A DNA stretch of 37,585 nucleotides from a virus (IMGVR_UViG_2541047802_000015); one strand, 5' to 3'. Shown: positions 3,678 through 16,907, counted from the first letter of the stretch. Translations and numbers: made by a program. Notes: generated by a model not told the origin, from the sequence alone.

Positions 3678-4310
3678 TCATTCATCGTTCGTTGCACGAA
3701 CGCGCCTGATCTCCACTCTGGCAATCTGATCTGCTGGAATATAGGTTGCCAGAGCTCCCCAGTACTTATCAACCACGCCTTTATACTCTTCCCATTCGTT
3801 ACTGCCTGAAGGGCTGCTGTGCGTGACGTAAAGAACCATATCGCCTTTATTCCCCAGGGTAAACGGACCGTTAGGCCACTCTTCAAAGTTCCCTGGCAGC
3901 CGTGACATCATACCGGAACCATCGCGAAGAATCACTCTGACCTCGGTAACGCTGAAGCCTGTTTGATCAAACATTGCCTGCCATGCTGAGCTGGTATCGT
4001 CAGACCATGAAATATCATTATTCCACAGTAATCTGTACATCCATTTGCGACCGTACCTGCGCCACCACGCACCGCATGTAACGGCACACAGAAGTGCTGG
4101 TGGTGTTGCCAGCCAGGCATTCAGACCTGCCCACATAACAGCCTGGTAAGCCATCATTGCTGTCAGGCCAAAAATCAGCGAAGAAAAAGTCACCTCAATG
4201 GGCTTGTGGTGATCCTTCAGTCCCACATTCGCAATAAAATACCCAATATAGCCACTGGTCAGGGTCACCAGTGTTGCCCATGGCAGATTTAACAACGAAA
4301 CGTCAAACAT
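3678..4310 (-). CDS. membrane protein of unknown function (3 predicted N-terminal TM helices plus soluble C-terminal domain)
   Basis: Start refined to the Met at 4310 (MFDVSLLNLPW...) with GGGAG RBS; hydrophobic N-terminal third; terminal gene of the leftward phage arm. Confidence 0.5.
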   Translation of the reverse strand: MFDVSLLNLPWATLVTLTSGYIGYFIANVGLKDHHKPIEVTFSSLIFGLTAMMAYQAVMWAGLNAWLATPPALLCAVTCGAWWRRYGRKWMYRLLWNNDISWSDDTSSAWQAMFDQTGFSVTEVRVILRDGSGMMSRLPGNFEEWPNGPFTLGNKGDMVLYVTHSSPSGSNEWEEYKGVVDKYWGALATYIPADQIARVEIRRVRATNDE

Positions 4311-4424
4311 ATTTTCTCCCTGCATCCTGAATACTAAAGAGAGAGCATAAAAAAAGCACGGTAAGGGGTCTACCGTGCTTTTATACAATAAGGAGATTTT
4401 TGAAAGGACTTTAACAAGCAGGAA

Positions 4425-4823
4425 TTATCTGGATTTGTTAACGTCTTTCGTCTCCTCTGGCAGATCTTCATCAAACAACCTGCCCTGCATCCGATCCAGT
4501 TCTTCTTTTCTGACCCGCTTAACCACGCTGTAGACCCACTGAAGCGAAACACCAAACTTGCGGGCCAGTTCGTGGTGGTTGCGTCCGTTAAACTCCCTGA
4601 AGATTTCCCGGTCGCGCTGACTGACCTTCCATACCATGCCCATCGGGAAATAAACGTTTTGCCCGCCCCAGACCTGCATCATTCGGTTCGCGACGGCCTG
4701 ACCAATCTGGTCGGCAATTGCGGGCTCAATATCAATAATCTCGCGAACGGTCTCAGAGGTATGCTGTGCCAGCTCCACCAGGAGTTCCGGCCCTTTACTT
4801 CGAAACTGATTCAGGTCGCTCAT
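4425..4823 (-). CDS. Mor/C-family transcriptional activator (candidate late-gene activator)
   Basis: 132 aa; C-terminal HTH region with DREIFREFNGRNHHELARKFGVSLQWVYSVV resembling the Mu Mor/C family. Confidence 0.65.
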   Translation of the reverse strand: MSDLNQFRSKGPELLVELAQHTSETVREIIDIEPAIADQIGQAVANRMMQVWGGQNVYFPMGMVWKVSQRDREIFREFNGRNHHELARKFGVSLQWVYSVVKRVRKEELDRMQGRLFDEDLPEETKDVNKSR

Positions 4824-11555: not shown

Positions 11556-12472
11556 TACTGCATGCCCTCCGGTCGGTTGATTTCAGGCTCCGGTTCGGTC
11601 AGCCATGCGGGGACATCGTTACCCGATGGTGCGGCATCAAGGTCGAACGTCTCACGCAATGCATGAACACTGCGTTCAATCTGGCAGACCAGACCGGCCA
11701 TGAAATCTCTGGGGGTATCAATCATGTTTTTACTGCAGTATTCACACAGGGTTTCAAAGGCACCGGAGAGCCGGACGGCGATGGCAGATTCCGCCTCAAC
11801 CGCTAATGCGGTCACTTCCGCCCGCAGCTTCTTCACCTCTTCATCAGGCTCAGGCGGTTGAATACGGGATTTCTTCTCCAGTTTTGTGGCCAGTTCGTTG
11901 ATTTTTTCGTCCTTTCCGGCAAGCACCTGTTGCTGAGCTGCGTTAGTTTCGCGCGCTTCACGCAGGGCCTGGCGAAGTTCACGTACTGACATGCGATCAA
12001 CATCATCAAGCGTCAGGCCGGCAACTGTGCCGCCGTCGGCCAGTTCGGCAAGGTCTTCATCGTCTTCAGCAACAAGTTCAAATAATTTTGCCTTACCCAA
12101 AAGCGACAACGTTGTCGCTTTTGGCTCTAGTTTTGGTGAAAGGTATTTCAAAGATGCTTTCATCATTCGTTGTGCTGCGCGCACGTGCAAACCAAGTTGT
12201 TCTTCTACAATTCCAACAAAGTCCCCGTGTGGCTCATTTTCTTTTAAGATGATCAGCCGTTTACCCGCTTCCAGCATAGATTCAGCACTCTGCGCCATAT
12301 AAAAACGTGCTTCGTGAACGATGCGATCACGTTCATAAGGCAGTCCATCACCAAACTGCTGCATGATCTCCATGCGATGCTGTGTCATGGCATTCAGGCT
12401 GACGTTGAGATCATCCGACAGCGGTACCTCGGCGTTCAGTTCAGTGTTAACCGGTGATTTGGTGCGTCCCAT
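11555..12472 (-). CDS. phage early protein with coiled-coil region (possibly DUF3102-like)
   Basis: 305 aa; Glu/Ala-rich central coiled coil; family assignment is tentative. Confidence 0.45.
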   Translation of the reverse strand: MGRTKSPVNTELNAEVPLSDDLNVSLNAMTQHRMEIMQQFGDGLPYERDRIVHEARFYMAQSAESMLEAGKRLIILKENEPHGDFVGIVEEQLGLHVRAAQRMMKASLKYLSPKLEPKATTLSLLGKAKLFELVAEDDEDLAELADGGTVAGLTLDDVDRMSVRELRQALREARETNAAQQQVLAGKDEKINELATKLEKKSRIQPPEPDEEVKKLRAEVTALAVEAESAIAVRLSGAFETLCEYCSKNMIDTPRDFMAGLVCQIERSVHALRETFDLDAAPSGNDVPAWLTEPEPEINRPEGMQ

Positions 12473-12843: not shown

Positions 12844-13032
12844 TCAGGCTGCCTGAGCTGTTGATTTCAGCCCCAGTTTCACGGCGATTTCATGGGATTT
12901 ACCGTAACGTGCTTTGCTCTGCCCATTGAGAACGCGGTATACCTCATTGCGGTTGTAGCCGTTTTCTTCTGCCCAGCGGGTGAAAGTGATCCCGCGCTGG
13001 CGGAAGAGAGCTTTGACTTGTTCTGCAGTCAT
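12844..13032 (-). CDS. Ner-like DNA-binding protein (first gene of the early operon)
   Basis: 62 aa; RYGKSHEIAVKLGLK parallels the Ner/Nlp WPKGE-IIA-ALG motif; strong AAGGAGA RBS; divergent from the repressor gene. Confidence 0.6.
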   Translation of the reverse strand: MTAEQVKALFRQRGITFTRWAEENGYNRNEVYRVLNGQSKARYGKSHEIAVKLGLKSTAQAA

Positions 13033-13132: not shown

Positions 13133-13471
13133 ATGATCGGGTTACGTATTAAAGAAGAAAGAGAGCGTCTATCTCTTACACAGCAAGGGTTGGCTGATGC
13201 TATCGGTGTGGCAAAGAGAACTTTTATTGATTGGGAAAAAGATCGCACTTCTCCTACTGCAGTGCAGTTATCTGCACTATCAGAAATCGGTGTAGATGTT
13301 TTGTATGTAGTTACTGGGGTGCGGAGTCAGCCTGTTGTTGCACCTTATATGTCACAAGAAAAGAAAGAGTTAATGGATGCATTCGACGAGATGAGCCCCG
13401 AACAACGGAGGGCAATTCTTGAGGTCGGCAAAGTCTTCATTCAACCCAAACCAAGCAAACTCGCAGGCTGA
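13133..13471 (+). CDS. XRE/Cro-CI-type HTH repressor
   Basis: Start refined to ATG at 13133; LSLTQQGLADAIGVAKRTFIDWEKDRTSP is a canonical XRE helix-turn-helix; 112 aa with no peptidase domain. Confidence 0.6.
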   Translation: MIGLRIKEERERLSLTQQGLADAIGVAKRTFIDWEKDRTSPTAVQLSALSEIGVDVLYVVTGVRSQPVVAPYMSQEKKELMDAFDEMSPEQRRAILEVGKVFIQPKPSKLAG

Positions 13472-13557
13472 TTCTGACCTGGACAGAAAGGACAGGTGGT
13501 TGATCTGGATGCTTTCAGAAAACGCCGTCAGTAGCATGGCAGAAATCGGCGGGCTTA

Positions 13558-13591
13558 CCGGAAAGCACTGTACTTTCCGGTTATGGCTTTT
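13558..13591 (+). terminator. putative intrinsic terminator between convergent repressor and dam genes
   Basis: CCGGAAAG/CTTTCCGG 8-bp stem with 7-nt loop, followed by TTATGGCTTTT on the plus strand. Confidence 0.45.
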
Positions 13592-14354
13592 AGAAATTGC
13601 AGATCACCAGCTCACGGCGTGGAGTTGATTTGCCTGCCAGACTGTAGTTGATGTTCACTGTCTGTATGTTCAGTCCAGTGAACACCTCGCGCATCTGCGG
13701 GATGTCGTTCACCGAAATTATCATCTTTCCTCTGATGCACCGGGCCAGCTCTGCCAGCCGCGAGTAGTTCCCTTCAGGAAAATCCACACCATAGCCTTCT
13801 GTACCCAGATACGGCGGGTCACAGTAGAACAGCGTGTGCGGACGGTCATAGCGCTCAATGCACTGTTGCCAGTCCATGTGTTCTATCACCGTTCTGGAAA
13901 GCCGCAGGTGTGCCGCTGACAGTTCTTCCTCGATACGCAGCAGGTTGAAGCGTGGCGGGGATGTGGTGGAGGTGCCGAAGCTGTGCTCTGCCACCTTGCC
14001 GCCAAACGCCTGCTTCTGGAGGTAGTAGAACCGTGCTGCACGCTGGATATCCGTCAGTGTTTCTGTCGGGGTGATCTGCAGCCATTTGTAGATCTGCCGG
14101 CTGACCAGCGCCCATTTGAACTGGCGGACAAATTCTTCCAGATGATGTTTTACCACCCGATACAGATTTACCAGTTCACCATTGATATCGTTAATGACTT
14201 CGAGCTTACCAGGTGTCTTAAGAAAATAGAGCGCTGCTGCGCCGCAGAACGGCTCCACGTAACATTCATGCGCCGGAAACAGCGGCAGGATGTGTTTTGC
14301 CAGGCGACGTTTGCCACCAATCCATGGAACGATGGGTAATGTCTGCATTTTCAT
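13590..14354 (-). CDS. dam: DNA adenine methyltransferase (Dam family, N6-adenine, D12 class)
   Basis: 254 aa; catalytic DPPY motif and N-terminal FxGxK-type AdoMet-binding region; no restriction endonuclease partner in the window. Confidence 0.85.
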   Translation of the reverse strand: MKMQTLPIVPWIGGKRRLAKHILPLFPAHECYVEPFCGAAALYFLKTPGKLEVINDINGELVNLYRVVKHHLEEFVRQFKWALVSRQIYKWLQITPTETLTDIQRAARFYYLQKQAFGGKVAEHSFGTSTTSPPRFNLLRIEEELSAAHLRLSRTVIEHMDWQQCIERYDRPHTLFYCDPPYLGTEGYGVDFPEGNYSRLAELARCIRGKMIISVNDIPQMREVFTGLNIQTVNINYSLAGKSTPRRELVICNF

Positions 14355-14459
14355 AATCTGTAAGCCTTTTACAATTATTAAAAATATGGCAGGCTAGTCT
14401 GGTCTCGCGAGACTGACTGAACCCCGGTCGGCTCACAGCGCATTCCTGTGGGACGATGG

Positions 14460-14500
14460 CCAGCCCGGTGGGTCCGAAGCACCGGGCTGGTCGTTCTTTC
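14460..14500 (+). terminator. GC-rich hairpin with downstream T-tract (plus-strand terminator-like) upstream of dam
   Basis: 11-bp stem (14460-14470 pairs with 14480-14490), 9-nt loop, then TCGTTCTTTC; no annotated plus-strand gene ends here. Confidence 0.35.
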
Positions 14501-14546
14501 ATGATGCGGCAGGGATGAAGTGATTTCTGTTAATGTGGTTTAGGGA

Positions 14547-14762
14547 TTATCCGGGGCGATTTTCTGACCTTATCTGGTCCAGGGCATAAGTGATCCCTTC
14601 TGCAAAAACAGAAGTATCAAACTGCTTTTGTATTTCCTGAAAATGAACAGTGGCACGACAGACACTCAGTTCTCCGCGATGTAACCGGATAATATCTTCC
14701 AGAACATTGTTCACTGCTTCGGCACGGCGCTGATGTTCTGTTAACGTTAATCGGGGATTCAT
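14547..14762 (-). CDS. hypothetical protein (71 aa)
   Basis: ATG at 14762 preceded by AAGGAG with 6-nt spacer; no family recognised. Confidence 0.4.
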   Translation of the reverse strand: MNPRLTLTEHQRRAEAVNNVLEDIIRLHRGELSVCRATVHFQEIQKQFDTSVFAEGITYALDQIRSENRPG

Positions 14763-15139: not shown

Positions 15140-15688
15140 TTACGTGTTTAATGAACGTAAGTGAGGTTTATCCGCTGTCTGCATAATCCCGATAGCCAGT
15201 GCGAGGGGAAGCAATTCCGGGGAAACTCTTTCAAACAGCGATTCCCATTCTCCTCTCGCCATCACTCTGTCCAGCCCGCCCTCCAGCTGCATTTCAGCAA
15301 TCTTCCTGATTTCCCGGAACAACGCCGCTTTGATCTCTTCATGCTCAGCTTTATTTTCCGGTGTCAGAATGTATTCGTCGAAGAACCGGGGAGGCTGGTT
15401 AACGGGGGGCATGTTCACCGGGATGTGTTCCTGTATCCCGTACTCCGGGGCTGAAAAACATTTTGTTGTCTGACCGGTGAGTTTGCGTAACACCTTCATG
15501 AGTTGCTCCTGAAGCAGCTCATTCGTCCGACAGATACGCTCGTCGTCCACAACTGCGGCATCGACAATGACGCTTTTTCCAAATTCCTTTTTCACCATCT
15601 CTTTTATACGCGTCAGAACGTAACTTTTACCGCTGCCTACAGGCCCGGACACTCTGACGGTGATGGTCGGCTTCGGTGTGACTGTCAT
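15140..15688 (-). CDS. small P-loop NTPase/kinase-like protein (182 aa)
   Basis: Start refined to the Met at 15688 with AAGGAG RBS; Walker A GPVGSGKS near the N-terminus and Walker B-like VIVDAAVVDDE. Confidence 0.5.
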   Translation of the reverse strand: MTVTPKPTITVRVSGPVGSGKSYVLTRIKEMVKKEFGKSVIVDAAVVDDERICRTNELLQEQLMKVLRKLTGQTTKCFSAPEYGIQEHIPVNMPPVNQPPRFFDEYILTPENKAEHEEIKAALFREIRKIAEMQLEGGLDRVMARGEWESLFERVSPELLPLALAIGIMQTADKPHLRSLNT

Positions 15689-15747: not shown

Positions 15748-15792
15748 TCTTAACGCGCTTTAAAATCCTCCGCGCCACGCTTTTGCCATGCT
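15748..15792 (+). promoter_or_regulatory. putative late promoter upstream of the lysis cassette
   Basis: Conserved block TCTTAACGCGCTTTAAAATC, 19-nt spacer, then CATGCT; same architecture recurs at 23148, 29058 and 35148. Confidence 0.5.
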
Positions 15793-15819: not shown

Positions 15820-16170
15820 ATGAAACCATTCACTTCCCTTATCGTTGACGTACAAAAAACCCGCCTGCGTGGATGGCTTGTTGCGGCCGTGCTGCTGCTC
15901 CTCATCATCGCGCTGGTCTCACCCCAGCAGTTGCCGGTGGTGGTGTACAAGCTCTCTCTCATCTCCCTCGCCGCCGTGCTCGGCTACTGGCTGGACCGCT
16001 CACTCTTCCCGAAGGCCCGTCCGGGGCAGTACCTGAAGCATGACGAGCGCCTCATGGCTGAGGGGCGCTGGCCCGTACAGACCGGCCTTCACCTGGTGTT
16101 TTCTGCTGCGTTAATCCGCCGTGCACTGATTGTTGCAGCTGTCTGTCTGGCTGTTGCGATGGGGCTTTAA
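15820..16170 (+). CDS. putative holin / lysis membrane protein (first gene of the late arm)
   Basis: 116 aa with 2-3 hydrophobic helices; AAGGAGA RBS; immediately precedes the transglycosylase. Confidence 0.45.
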   Translation: MKPFTSLIVDVQKTRLRGWLVAAVLLLLIIALVSPQQLPVVVYKLSLISLAAVLGYWLDRSLFPKARPGQYLKHDERLMAEGRWPVQTGLHLVFSAALIRRALIVAAVCLAVAMGL

Positions 16171-16172
16171 TC

Positions 16173-16907
16173 ATGAACTGGCCACAGAGCACCTGGATTG
16201 TATGCATGTCCCTGAAACTGGCTTTCGAAGCCTTTCTGGTCTTCATCAGAACCGAACGCCTGTCAGTCCGTGTCGGGACCTTTCTGGTTCATATGGCATG
16301 GGTATTCTTTGTCGCAATGTTGCTCTGGTGTGGCGGCTTCTTCAGTCAGGCCCGCGCAGCGCAGCCTCCGCAGGCTGCGCTGCAGTATCGCGATGATGTG
16401 ATCCGTAATGCCCGGCTTGAATGGGGGCTGTCTGCGCCGGTGGCCGATTTCGCCGCGCAACTGCATCAGGAAAGCGGCTGGCGGACTGATGCGGTCTCGC
16501 CGGTGGGCGCTCAGGGGCTGGCGCAGTTTATGCCCGCCACCGCTGACTGGATAAGCCAGTTGATGCCGGCGTTGAGCAGTCGTGAGCCGTTTAATCCGGC
16601 ATGGGCCATCCGGGCGCTGGTCAGCTATGACCGCTGGCTGTGGCAGCGCATCAGCGCCGCCAGTGACTGCGAGCGTATGGCCATGACACTGTCGGGCTAT
16701 AACGGTGGTCTGGGTTGGGTACAACGGGACAGGCGGCTCGCATCACAGAAAGGTCTGGACAGCACCCGCTGGTTCGGACATGTCGCCACGGTGAATGCCG
16801 GACGCAATGCTGCCAGCTGGCGGGAGAACCGCCATTATCCGCAGCGCATCCTGCACGAACTGGCCCCCCGTTATCTGACATGGGGGGGCGGCAGCTGTGT
16901 GGACTAA
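16173..16907 (+). CDS. lytic transglycosylase endolysin (SLT domain) with N-terminal signal/SAR-like segment
   Basis: SLT motif region ESGWRTDAVSPVGAQGLAQFMP; hydrophobic WVFFVAMLLWCGGFF followed by ARA-AQ; true start may be the internal Met at about 16293. Confidence 0.75.
   Translation: MNWPQSTWIVCMSLKLAFEAFLVFIRTERLSVRVGTFLVHMAWVFFVAMLLWCGGFFSQARAAQPPQAALQYRDDVIRNARLEWGLSAPVADFAAQLHQESGWRTDAVSPVGAQGLAQFMPATADWISQLMPALSSREPFNPAWAIRALVSYDRWLWQRISAASDCERMAMTLSGYNGGLGWVQRDRRLASQKGLDSTRWFGHVATVNAGRNAASWRENRHYPQRILHELAPRYLTWGGGSCVD

What the first reader, a model, noticed from the sequence alone, without database searches (positions are those of the whole stretch)
14396..14500. Perfect 12-bp palindrome and a plus-strand terminator-like hairpin in the dam upstream region
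GTCTCGCGAGAC (14402-14413) is a perfect palindrome with partly symmetric flanks, placed about 50 bp upstream of the dam start. About 45 bp further on is an 11-bp GC stem followed by TCGTTCTTTC on the plus strand, although all neighbouring genes are on the minus strand. Together with the plus-strand terminator at 13558-13591 this could indicate antisense transcription across dam or a small RNA; the palindrome could be an operator.
Basis: partly seen in the sequence, partly recalled or inferred. Interest (0 to 1): 0.4.

Follow-up and report, generated by a model that had tools for sequence, protein, structure and literature searches.

The report
Structured antisense RNA beside phage dam
The palindrome and the hairpin are two parts of one conserved, folded RNA of about 115 bases, encoded opposite the leader of a phage DNA-methylase (dam) gene in many phages, matching no catalogued RNA family and probably controlling when the methylase is made.

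Summary
Both features exist at the stated coordinates. Alone they say little: the window holds ten perfect 12-bp palindromes, as many as shuffled sequence.

Comparison with about 100 related loci shows they belong to one conserved block, window 14386-14501. It reads as a plus-strand RNA:
- HP1, a hairpin whose tip is the palindrome.
- P0, a closing helix (GAAC 14419-22 with GUUC 14493-96).
- A short U/C tail.

On 56 close relatives 98.6% of pair cells are standard pairs and 14 pairs show changes on both sides. On 53 diverse relatives the figures are 92.6% and 29 of 33 pairs. G·U pairs outnumber A·C, and folding energies favour the strand opposite dam.

The block travels with dam. It lies next to dam in BcepMu-like enterobacterial prophages and between Rz and dam in Burkholderia phages phiE125 and phi1026b. 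No Rfam family matches.

The dam ribosome-binding region copies one arm of HP2 and changes with it across relatives.

Best reading: a self-contained antisense small RNA over the dam mRNA leader, controlling dam after transcription. Its promoter, the direction of control, and why the HP1 tip is always a loop-less palindrome remain open. The terminator at 13557-13591 simply ends the plus-strand repressor gene.

The parts
14386..14501 (+). Conserved structured RNA, the 'dam-leader antisense RNA'. The covariance-model match is 14386-14503. The true 5' end is unknown; about 14382-14392 is inferred.
   Evidence: Model R1 scores 120 bits here. Homology in about 75 loci runs 14349-14501 and stops after the tail. 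Pair statistics.
14396..14418 (+). HP1 hairpin. Outer stem AGTC 14396-99 with GACT 14415-18; inner stem and tip are the palindrome.
   Evidence: Four outer pairs all show changes on both sides. There are 31 distinct cores in relatives.
14402..14413 (.). Perfect 12-bp palindrome GTCTCGCGAGAC, the tip of HP1.
   Evidence: Palindromic to the centre in 28 of 31 distinct versions with unrelated sequences. Non-Watson-Crick positions are 15 G.U against 2 A.C.
14419..14422 (+). P0 helix, 5' strand (GAAC). It pairs with 14493-14496.
   Evidence: Swaps to GAGC:GCUC, GGGC:GCCC, ACAGC:GCUGU and CAGGGC:GCCCUG in relatives. 98-100% of cells paired.
14427..14457 (+). HP2 extended hairpin. Core arms CTCACAG 14432-38 and CTGTGGG 14446-52, loop 14439-45, basal helix GTCG 14427-30 with CGAT 14454-57.
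   Evidence: Arms change together in relatives (UUCACUG/CAGUGGA, CUUGCAG/CUGCGGG). One-base indels in the loop rule out a reading frame.
14430..14438 (+). GGCTCACAG, the 5' arm of HP2 and a near copy of the dam ribosome-binding region. Its complement on the minus strand (CUGUGAGCC) is a possible anti-TIR in the dam leader.
   Evidence: The best TIR:leader duplex falls here in 39 of 52 loci. TIR and arm covary in at least 8 sequence types.
14458..14492 (+). 13-bp stem 14458-70 with 14480-92; perfect 11 bp at 14460-70 with 14480-90.
   Evidence: Seven of 11 pairs show changes on both sides. Paths C:G to U.G to U:A occur at two pairs.
14493..14501 (+). P0 3' strand (GTTC 14493-96) followed by the short pyrimidine tail TTTCA. 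P0 and HP3 together with the tail look like an intrinsic terminator.
   Evidence: The tail is a long U run in AT-richer relatives (L220, L236, L195). Homology ends here.
14348..14375 (+). Candidate promoter of the RNA, TTTTCA-16-TACAAT. The -35 overlaps the dam start codon.
   Evidence: Weak in the window (8.9 against 6.0 +/- 2.5 in shuffles). The -10 is not kept in most enteric relatives. TTGCCA-16-TAAACT sits at the same relative position in the phiE125 clade (10.7 against about 3.2 +/- 2.4).
14358..14366 (-). dam translation-initiation region GGCUUACAG (SD GG plus spacer), conserved far beyond a normal SD.
13590..14354 (-). dam, a D12-class N6-adenine DNA methyltransferase of 254 aa. It is the gene the element travels with.
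   Evidence: Pfam PF02086, E=1e-28. Co-occurrence.
13133..13471 (+). c-like repressor gene (HTH_3), convergent with dam.
   Evidence: RefSeq annotation and Pfam.
13557..13591 (+). Intrinsic terminator of the repressor gene. Not part of the RNA element.
   Evidence: It lies 86 nt after the repressor stop codon.
14501..14540 (.). Degenerate copy of the late-promoter box (TTAATGTGGTTTAG 14526-39) and a minus-strand -10-like CATCAT (14506-14501). A relic of the ancestral junction between the element and the late promoter.
   Evidence: In most relatives the element ends about 105 nt upstream of the holin ATG.

Best explanation
Window 14386-14501 encodes a self-contained small RNA of about 115 nt on the plus strand, opposite the 5' leader of the phage dam gene.

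Shown: it folds into HP1 (tipped by the palindrome) followed by a three-way junction. In that junction helix P0 closes HP2 and HP3. P0 and HP3 stack into a long stem followed by a short U/C tail, which resembles an intrinsic terminator.

Inferred: the RNA starts at a sigma-70-type promoter whose -35 overlaps the dam start codon. The dam mRNA comes from a late promoter further upstream. In this window that is probably the operon 183-aa ORF, 71-aa ORF, dam, read leftward from the holin promoter region. That mRNA therefore carries the exact complement of the RNA. Pairing of the two controls Dam synthesis after transcription.

Shown: the dam ribosome-binding region (GGCUUACAG) is a near copy of the HP2 5' arm. 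It can therefore pair with the leader's own copy of that arm's complement, or with the small RNA's HP2 3' arm.

My best guess, inferred only, is a safety lock. It would keep this potentially harmful DNA-modification enzyme silent in the lysogen and let it be made only when late transcription is strong. That would parallel the multi-layer control of Mu mom and the toxin mRNAs of type I toxin-antitoxin pairs. The direction of control is not settled.
For: 1. One conserved block. Homology in about 75 loci spans 14349-14501 and stops right after the tail, while the flanks differ.

2. RNA structure.
- On 56 unique sequences aligned by MAFFT, 98.6% of cells pair (93.3% in shuffles, 30-54% when partners are slid) and 14 pairs change on both sides.
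- On 53 diverse sequences, 92.6% pair against 72.2%, 29 of 33 pairs change on both sides, and the covariation score is 0.566 against 0.209 (this alignment was fitted to the model).
- P0 covaries richly.

3. Strand.
- G.U against A.C is 60:10 in HP3, 25:6 in HP1 and 3:0 in P0.
- It is 15:2 inside the HP1 cores.
- The strand opposite dam folds better in 38 of 52 sequences, by 6.3 kcal/mol on average, Wilcoxon p=6e-6.
- The U/C tail always lies on that strand and is a long U run in AT-richer relatives.

4. Linkage to dam.
- In 80 holin-anchored genome loci, dam and element co-occur in 24 (23 by the blastn count; L096 carries the element by cmsearch only), the element is alone in 1, and 55 have neither.
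- In 80 dam-anchored viral contigs the element sits about 30 nt upstream of dam (further where a com ORF intervenes), opposite strand, in about 60 loci, down to 65% Dam identity.

5. Own gene. In phiE125 the RNA lies between Rz and dam, with no gene on its strand on either side. It is therefore not the leader or trailer of another gene. That clade has a good promoter, TTGCCA-16-TAAACT, at the matching position and none on the dam strand between HP1 and the ATG.

6. Link to translation. The best TIR:leader duplex hits the HP2-arm complement in 39 of 52 loci. The best TIR:small-RNA duplex hits the HP2 3' arm in 37 of 49. TIR and arm change together in at least 8 sequence types.

7. One-base indels in the loops exclude a coding frame.

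8. No Rfam family matches.
Against: - No transcript data exist. The RNA's existence, its ends and its promoter are all inferred.
- The window's promoter match is weak (8.9 against 6.0 +/- 2.5). Its -10 is TGCAAT, without the key A, in most enteric relatives.
- The tail has only three or four U in the window, so termination may be inefficient.
- In one GC-rich clade the two strands fold about equally well.
- If the RNA starts near 14385 it does not cover the dam SD or start codon, so simple occlusion by the overlap is not available.
- The TIR complementarity fits a purely cis-acting leader equally well.
- The sequences are phylogenetically related, so cell counts overstate the number of independent events.
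Confidence: 0.6

Rival explanations
1. The functional molecule is only the dam mRNA leader on the minus strand. It would be a cis-acting 5' UTR whose segment CUGUGAGCC sequesters the ribosome-binding region, a translation-inhibition structure like that of Mu mom. No antisense transcript would matter.
For: - The TIR is complementary to the leader's HP2-arm complement, with covariation, in 39 of 52 loci.
- The position directly upstream of dam is fixed.
- Some relatives carry a Com zinc-ribbon ORF (PF10122, E=1e-14) between element and dam, as in Mu com-mom.
- The leader folds with z=-2.7.
Against: - On the minus strand the frequent G.U pairs become A.C mismatches. This affects 14 of 56 sequences in the middle of HP3 and 21 of 56 at its second pair.
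- The opposite strand is more stable by 10-19 kcal/mol in the enteric group.
- The U-rich tail and the good promoter in the phiE125 clade are on the other strand.
- This reading can hold together with the antisense RNA; the two do not exclude each other.
Confidence: 0.2
2. The palindrome is an operator for a dimeric regulator of dam or of the neighbouring late promoter. The hairpin is merely a plus-strand terminator that shields the late (lysis) operon from transcription coming from the repressor side.
For: - HP1 tips are palindromic to the very centre in 28 of 31 versions.
- In BcepMu-like relatives the tail ends about 35-45 nt before the conserved late-promoter box, and dam-less relatives such as L102 carry an unrelated terminator-like hairpin at that place.
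- A plus-strand repressor operon points this way.
Against: - It does not explain P0 and HP2 or their covariation.
- The element travels with dam, not with the late promoter. In phiE125 it lies between Rz and dam, where there is nothing to shield.
- The palindrome sequence is unrelated between clades, yet identical in enteric phages whose repressors differ.
- No second copy exists in the window.
- Asymmetries are G.U on one strand, 15:2.
Confidence: 0.1
3. The RNA is mainly a trans-acting small RNA with host or other phage targets. Its position next to dam would be a matter of co-inheritance.
For: The structure is stable and compact with a terminator-like 3' end. The 5' stretch A(U/C)GG(C/U)AGGCU is conserved and unpaired.
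Against: Linkage to dam is very tight and the spacing is fixed across unrelated phage types. The TIR-HP2 covariation ties it to dam itself. No target search was done.
Confidence: 0.1

Closest known systems
Divergent antisense small RNAs over toxin mRNA leaders in type I toxin-antitoxin pairs (tisB/IstR-1, zorO/OrzO, shoB/OhsC). From my own knowledge.
   Same: The small RNA gene faces away from the protein gene and overlaps its 5' UTR well upstream of the ribosome-binding site. The target mRNA leader appears able to mask its own translation start. The product is harmful if made at the wrong time.
   Different: The target is a DNA methyltransferase, not a small toxic peptide. The RNA is a larger four-helix fold with a three-way junction. 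No sequence or Rfam relationship was found. Neither leader processing nor an effect on translation has been shown.
Mu com-mom control of a late DNA-modification gene. From my own knowledge; com-methylase pairs in Burkholderia P2-like phages are listed in PMC3091744.
   Same: The DNA-modification gene is placed under late transcription. A possible translation-inhibition structure lies at the start site. Some relatives (L203, L191, L195) have a Com zinc-ribbon ORF between element and dam.
   Different: The window has no com gene. The enzyme is a D12 Dam-type methylase, not Mom. No antisense RNA partner comes to mind for mom. There are no GATC/OxyR sites in the element.
Phage cis-antisense RNAs: P22 sar (against ant) and lambda OOP (against cII). 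From my own knowledge.
   Same: Short, terminator-ended transcripts made from the opposite strand of a regulated phage gene.
   Different: Those RNAs overlap the ribosome-binding site or the 3' end of the coding region. This one overlaps only the upstream leader and carries a mimic of the ribosome-binding region inside a stem.
P1/P7 C4 antisense RNA family and the other Rfam phage RNA motifs.
   Same: Structured phage-borne regulatory RNAs found by comparative analysis.
   Different: No match to any of 4227 Rfam families in the window or in 8 diverse loci.
Intrinsic (Rho-independent) terminators.
   Same: A GC-rich stem followed by a U-rich tail at the end of the conserved block.
   Different: The first four bases after HP3 are the 3' strand of another helix (P0), so the stem is branched. 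The U run proper is only UUU(C) in the window.

Membership tests
Intrinsic terminator | Stable GC-rich hairpin | tested here: met
   13-bp stem 14458-70 with 14480-92, conserved with compensatory changes.
Intrinsic terminator | Run of U directly after the stem | tested here: inconclusive
   The tail after HP3 is UCGUUCUUUC. GUUC is paired in P0, which leaves UUUCA. Relatives have long U runs in L220, L236 and L195 but only UUUCU in the phiE125 clade.
Intrinsic terminator | Transcripts end there | not testable with these tools
   Needs 3' end mapping.
cis-encoded antisense small RNA | Conserved structure on the strand opposite the target gene | tested here: met
cis-encoded antisense small RNA | Own promoter on that strand | tested here: inconclusive
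   Window: TTTTCA-16-TACAAT scores 8.9 against 6.0 +/- 2.5. phiE125 clade: TTGCCA-16-TAAACT scores 10.7 against 3.2 +/- 2.4. The -10 is poor in most enteric relatives.
cis-encoded antisense small RNA | Target mRNA overlaps the RNA | tested here: inconclusive
   No dam-strand promoter between HP1 and the ATG in the phiE125 clade. Co-directional genes lie upstream. No start site has been mapped.
cis-encoded antisense small RNA | Changes expression of the target | not testable with these tools
   Needs genetics.
Any Rfam family (C4, radC, Mu-gpT-DE, hammerhead and others) | Score at or above the family's gathering threshold | tested here: not met
   0 matches in the window and in 8 diverse loci. 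The only sub-threshold hits are microRNA models with E of 0.5 or more.
Repressor or activator operator | Dyad symmetry | tested here: met
   Perfect 12-bp palindrome here. 28 of 31 versions are palindromic to the centre.
Repressor or activator operator | Sequence tracks the cognate regulator, or is repeated at other regulated promoters | tested here: not met
   No other copy with 3 or fewer mismatches near any promoter in the window. The same palindrome occurs in phages with different repressors. It differs from the late-promoter box TTAACGCNNTTTAA.
Mu com-mom type translational control | Com zinc-ribbon gene upstream of the modification gene | tested here: not met
   Absent in the window (the 71-aa ORF has no Pfam hit). 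Present only in relatives L203, L216, L191 and L195.
Mu com-mom type translational control | Structure that sequesters the translation start | tested here: inconclusive
   9-bp complementarity between TIR 14366-58 and leader 14438-30, with covariation. The energy z-scores against shuffled TIRs are modest (mean -1).
boxA / nut-type antitermination site | Single-stranded boxA (CGCUCUUUA-like) in a leader that reads into downstream genes | tested here: not met
   CGCUCUUUU in some relatives resembles boxA. But it is the 3' strand of helix P0 and changes to GCCCUG and GCUGU with its partner. In phiE125 no gene lies downstream on that strand.

The most novel reading that the evidence does not exclude
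The element may be a dual-coded switch of a kind not described for bacterial antisense RNAs. The small RNA would carry, inside HP2, a mimic of the dam ribosome-binding region. By pairing with the leader it would displace the leader's anti-TIR and so turn Dam translation on rather than off. The always loop-less palindromic tip of HP1 would act as a self-complementary kissing site (RNA dimerisation) or, at the same time, as a DNA dyad site for a protein.
Probability: 0.2. Interest if true: 0.75.

Novelty: new variant of a known kind. Interest (0 to 1): 0.6.

Why it matters
Phage-borne orphan Dam methylases are very common. This one sits in 556 of 5426 complete E. coli genomes. They alter host epigenetics, mutation rate and resistance to restriction, yet how their expression is confined to lytic growth is mostly unknown.

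A conserved RNA module attached to dam in unrelated phage types, Mu-like myoviruses of Enterobacterales and phiE125-like siphoviruses of Burkholderia, would give a concrete and testable control mechanism. It would also add a well-supported candidate family to the catalogue of structured bacterial and phage RNAs. For annotators, it explains a 150-190-nt 'empty' gap that PGAP and phage annotators leave blank or cover by extending the dam ORF, as in PhiKM.

Tried and rejected
- Lambda PR'-tR'-like or put/nut-like leader of the late operon. Rejected: the late-promoter box lies downstream of the tail, and in phiE125 nothing lies downstream on that strand.
- boxA resemblance of CGCUCUUU. Rejected: it is a paired, covarying strand of P0.
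- Palindrome as a Mor-binding site. Rejected: it differs from the conserved box TTAACGCNNTTTAA upstream of holin, and the element also occurs in phiE125-type phages, whose layout is not Mu-like; the sampled 5-kb stretch shows no Mor gene.
- C-box of restriction-modification controller proteins (GACT/AGTC). The outer arms are not conserved in relatives.
- Hidden ORFs (78-aa minus-strand ORF 14266-14502, 35-aa plus-strand ORF). One-base indels in the loops break them.
- SD sequestration by AGCCU 14363-67 with AGGCU 14391-95. The PhiKM type has AGUCU, so the pairing is not kept.
- Hammerhead or other ribozymes, tRNA-like RNAs, C4. No Rfam hits.
- GATC/OxyR-type control as in mom. The element contains no GATC.
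- Literature searches found no description of this RNA: BcepMu with small RNA; Mu-like prophage with sRNA; phiE125 with methyltransferase; B. thailandensis sRNAs; phage dam with antisense RNA.
- The phiE125 paper (J Bacteriol 2002) could not be fetched. My recollection that its methylase acts on phage DNA but not on lysogen DNA is therefore unverified and is not used.

Full report
**1. Context**

The window is an E. coli chromosome segment, 100% identical to strain Ec1117. It carries a BcepMu-like transposable prophage inserted next to inaA-nrdAB.

Genes around the finding, in window coordinates:
- The early operon runs on the minus strand. It goes from a small HTH gene (12844-13032) through the transposase to a Mor-family activator (4425-4823; Pfam Mor, E=1e-43).
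- A c-like HTH_3 repressor gene lies on the plus strand (13133-13471).
- dam (13590-14354, minus) is a D12-class N6-adenine methyltransferase (PF02086, E=1e-28).
- A 192-nt gap follows (14355-14546), then two minus-strand ORFs (14547-14762 and 15140-15688).
- The late operon runs on the plus strand and starts with the holin (15820-16170).

**2. The observation**

The palindrome GTCTCGCGAGAC is at 14402-14413. The perfect 11-bp GC stem is at 14460-14470 with 14480-14490 and has a 9-nt loop. TCGTTCTTTC follows at 14491-14500.

The palindrome alone is not remarkable. The window holds ten perfect 12-bp palindromes against 10.0 in shuffles. Perfect stems of at least 11 bp are rare, at 4 places against 0.15 expected.

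The statement that all neighbours are on the minus strand is therefore wrong.

**3. One conserved block**

- BLAST finds the region in 556 of 5426 complete E. coli genomes and in phages PhiKM and KP12.
- Alignments show that 14349-14501 is better conserved than the dam coding sequence beside it. Homology stops right after the tail, and what follows differs between relatives.
- In most relatives the block ends about 105 nt upstream of the holin ATG. It is followed after 35-45 nt by a conserved box, CT.TTAACGC..TTTAAAATCC, that is present upstream of holin in all relatives.
- In the window two minus-strand ORFs have been inserted after the block, leaving a degenerate copy of that box at 14526-14539.

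**4. The block is a structured RNA**

I collected 72 viral contigs by the palindrome pattern and 80 genome loci by the holin protein.

From the 56 unique sequences (MAFFT alignment A3), RNAalifold predicts the following:
- HP1: outer stem 14396-99 with 14415-18; the palindrome is its inner stem and tip.
- P0: a long-range helix, 14419-22 with 14493-96.
- HP2, inside P0: 14427-57.
- HP3, inside P0: 14458-92.

On A3, 98.6% of pair cells are standard pairs. Shuffles give 93.3% and slid partners give 30-54%. Fourteen pairs have changes on both sides.

A covariance model (R1) then found the element in far more distant sequences. On 53 distinct diverse members (A4):
- 92.6% of cells pair, against 72.2% in shuffles.
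- 29 of 33 pairs change on both sides.
- The covariation score is 0.566 against 0.209.

A4 is fitted to the model, which favours the structure. The raw sequences nevertheless show the swaps plainly. P0 reads GAAC:GUUC, GAGC:GCUC, GGGC:GCCC, ACAGC:GCUGU and CAGGGC:GCCCUG.

P0 and HP3 share one continuous 3' strand and stack into a long branched stem. A short pyrimidine tail follows: UUUCA here, and UUUUUUUU, UCUUUUUUU or UUUCU elsewhere.

One-base indels in the loops exclude a protein-coding frame.

**5. Which strand**

- On the strand-neutral alignment A3, G.U pairs (acceptable only on the plus strand) outnumber A.C pairs (acceptable only on the minus strand). The counts are 60:10 in HP3, 25:6 in HP1 and 3:0 in P0.
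- At two HP3 pairs the path C:G to U.G to U:A is visible.
- Without any alignment, the strand opposite dam folds more stably in 38 of 52 diverse sequences. The mean difference is -6.3 kcal/mol, with 10-19 kcal/mol in the enteric group. Wilcoxon p=6e-6, though the sequences are not independent.
- One GC-rich clade shows no preference.
- The U-rich tail is always on that strand.

I conclude that the selected structure is that of an RNA read on the window's plus strand, opposite dam.

**6. The RNA belongs to dam, not to the late promoter**

- Among the 80 holin-anchored loci, dam and the element co-occur in 24. The blastn count gives 23; L096 carries the element by cmsearch only. The element occurs alone in 1 locus and 55 have neither.
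- Among 80 viral contigs found through the Dam protein, about 60 carry the element on the opposite strand. Its 5' side lies about 30 nt from the dam start, or further out where a com ORF intervenes. This holds down to 65% Dam identity.
- These include Burkholderia siphophages phiE125, phi1026b and KS9. There the element lies between the Rz spanin gene and dam. Both genes are on the other strand, and the RNA's 3' end is 3 nt from the Rz stop.
- With no gene on its own strand on either side, the RNA cannot be the leader or trailer of another gene. This removes my earlier idea of a lambda PR'-tR'-like or put/nut-like leader of the late operon.
- The resemblance of CGCUCUUU to boxA also fails, because that stretch is a paired, covarying strand.

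**7. Promoters (inferred)**

- The consensus scan finds TTTTCA-16-TACAAT at 14348-14375 on the plus strand, with the -35 over the dam start codon.
- A position-weight scan gives 8.9 against 6.0 +/- 2.5 for shuffles. That is weak, and the -10 is TGCAAT in most enteric relatives.
- The phiE125 clade has TTGCCA-16-TAAACT at the same relative position. It scores 10.7 against about 3.2 +/- 2.4, while the best site on the other strand scores 2.5. There is no dam-strand promoter between HP1 and the ATG.
- In that clade the dam mRNA must therefore come from upstream, from the lysis operon, and must contain the complement of the RNA.
- In BcepMu-like phages, -10-like hexamers lie about 30 nt on either side of the dyad TTAACGC|..TTTAA. 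They are GATGCT or CATGCT toward holin. Toward dam or the 183-aa ORF they are CATGAT, CATCAT, CAGTAT, CAGGAT or CAGAAT. This suggests a two-way late promoter, presumably Mor-dependent. I have not tested this.

**8. A link to dam translation**

- The dam translation-initiation region is conserved far beyond a Shine-Dalgarno sequence: AAAGGCUUACAG before the AUG.
- GGCUUACAG (14366-14358, minus strand) is a near copy of the RNA's HP2 5' arm, GGCUCACAG (14430-14438).
- The two change together across relatives:

| Group | TIR (ribosome-binding region) | HP2 5' arm |
|---|---|---|
| L177 | GGCUUGCAG | GACUUGCAG |
| L220 | GGCUCACGA | GGCUCACGG |
| L205 | GGUUUGCAG | GGCUCGCAG |
| phiE125 clade | GGCUUUCAC | GAUUCACUG |
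| L226 | GAGAUCGUG | GAGACCGUG |
| L203 (TIR of com) | CUUGCAG | GGCUUGCAG |

- The best duplex between the TIR and the sense leader falls on the complement of that arm in 39 of 52 loci. By my rough estimate about 20% would do so by chance. The mean energy is -13.5 kcal/mol.
- By symmetry the TIR can equally pair with the small RNA's HP2 3' arm, in 37 of 49 loci at a mean of -13.0 kcal/mol.
- Sequence alone therefore cannot distinguish three cases. The leader may mask its own start site, as the translation-inhibition structure of Mu mom does. The small RNA may mask it. Or the small RNA may free it by capturing the leader's anti-TIR.
- In L203, L216, L191 and L195 a Com zinc-ribbon ORF (PF10122, E=1e-14) sits between the element and dam. 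This is the Mu com-mom layout. Com-methylase pairs in Burkholderia P2-like phages are on record (PMC3091744).

**9. The palindrome itself**

- Relatives show 31 distinct HP1 cores with unrelated sequences. Their central hexamers include TCGCGA, CTCGAG, ATCGAT, GTGCAC, ACCGGT, TACGTA, GGTACC, TGGCCA, GTCGAC and GACGTC.
- 28 of the 31 are palindromic through the very centre. An RNA hairpin has no need for a self-complementary loop.
- Positions inside the cores that are not Watson-Crick are G.U on the plus strand 15 times and A.C twice. That is an RNA-level signature.
- As an operator it fails two tests. There is no second copy in the window. The same palindrome also occurs in phages whose repressors differ.
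- The full symmetry remains unexplained. A DNA dyad site, an RNA kissing-dimer site, or the fact that sense and antisense hairpins become identical are all possible.

**10. Comparison and novelty**

- No Rfam family matches the window or eight diverse loci.
- Five literature searches found no description of this RNA.
- In architecture it is closest to the divergent small RNAs that overlap toxin mRNA leaders in type I toxin-antitoxin pairs. In biology it is closest to the multi-layer control of Mu mom. Both comparisons rest on my own knowledge.
- I file it as a new variant of a known kind: a cis-antisense RNA with an unusual fold, a built-in mimic of the target's ribosome-binding region and a loop-less palindromic hairpin.

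**11. Verdict**

| Claim | Confidence |
|---|---|
| The block is a plus-strand structured RNA | about 0.85 |
| It acts on dam expression as an antisense partner of the leader | about 0.6 |
| Direction of control, promoter and ends | open |

Everything about transcription is inferred from sequence. Stranded RNA-seq or a Northern blot would settle it.

Noticed in passing
window 15750-15768, with relic at 14526-14539: A conserved dyad box TTAACGCGCTTTAA(AATCC) lies upstream of holin in all relatives and occurs once in the window. -10-like hexamers sit about 30 nt to each side: CATGCT toward holin, and CAGAAT toward the 183-aa ORF 15140-15688 on the minus strand. It may be a two-way, Mor-dependent late promoter, which would make dam a late gene. 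A degenerate second copy follows the RNA element.
   Followed up: partly
window 13557-13591: The plus-strand hairpin with T-run is the terminator of the plus-strand HTH_3 repressor gene (13133-13471), which converges on dam.
   Followed up: yes
L203 about 2318-2500; also L216, L191, L195: A Com-like zinc-ribbon ORF (PF10122) lies between the RNA element and dam, as in Mu com-mom. In L203 it appears to read in frame into dam with no stop codon.
   Followed up: partly
L004 5001-5159 (same sequence as L079 and L054): dam is deleted except for about the first 55 nt, yet the whole RNA element is kept at 91% identity. The complement of the dam SD is mutated there (AAGCC to AACCC).
   Followed up: partly
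L094, L096 and L171 (Photorhabdus), HP1 region: The palindromic tip of HP1 is replaced by a tandem duplication ATCAATA-ATCAATA, while the rest of the RNA is intact. This is a natural variant without the palindrome.
   Followed up: no
L083, L087 and L090, about 3765-3900: A degenerate copy of the element's 3' half (CTGTGG... GTCGTTCTTTCAAAG) lies directly upstream of the late-promoter box. A full copy sits about 1 kb further upstream in L083 and L087, and about 3.7 kb upstream in L090. This is a trace of gene insertion by recombination inside the element.
   Followed up: partly
window 4352-4382, 12097-12124, 16356-16383: Three other perfect hairpins with stems of at least 11 bp. The first lies just beyond the end of the Mor gene, the last gene of the early operon, and may be its terminator.
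   Followed up: no
HP3 tip in most relatives (A4 alignment): The motif GUGUU-NNN-GCAC is conserved at the top of HP3 across enteric and Burkholderia versions. The window instead has GGUG-GGUCCGAAG-CACC.
   Followed up: no
L002 (phage PhiKM) 3251-4105: The deposited annotation extends the dam ORF 90 nt upstream across part of the RNA element. This is probably an over-extended start.
   Followed up: no
L085 1643-2933: In a relative, two plus-strand genes (297 aa and a 153-aa membrane protein) follow the repressor gene and converge on dam. The region between the repressor gene and dam is a variable cargo site.
   Followed up: no
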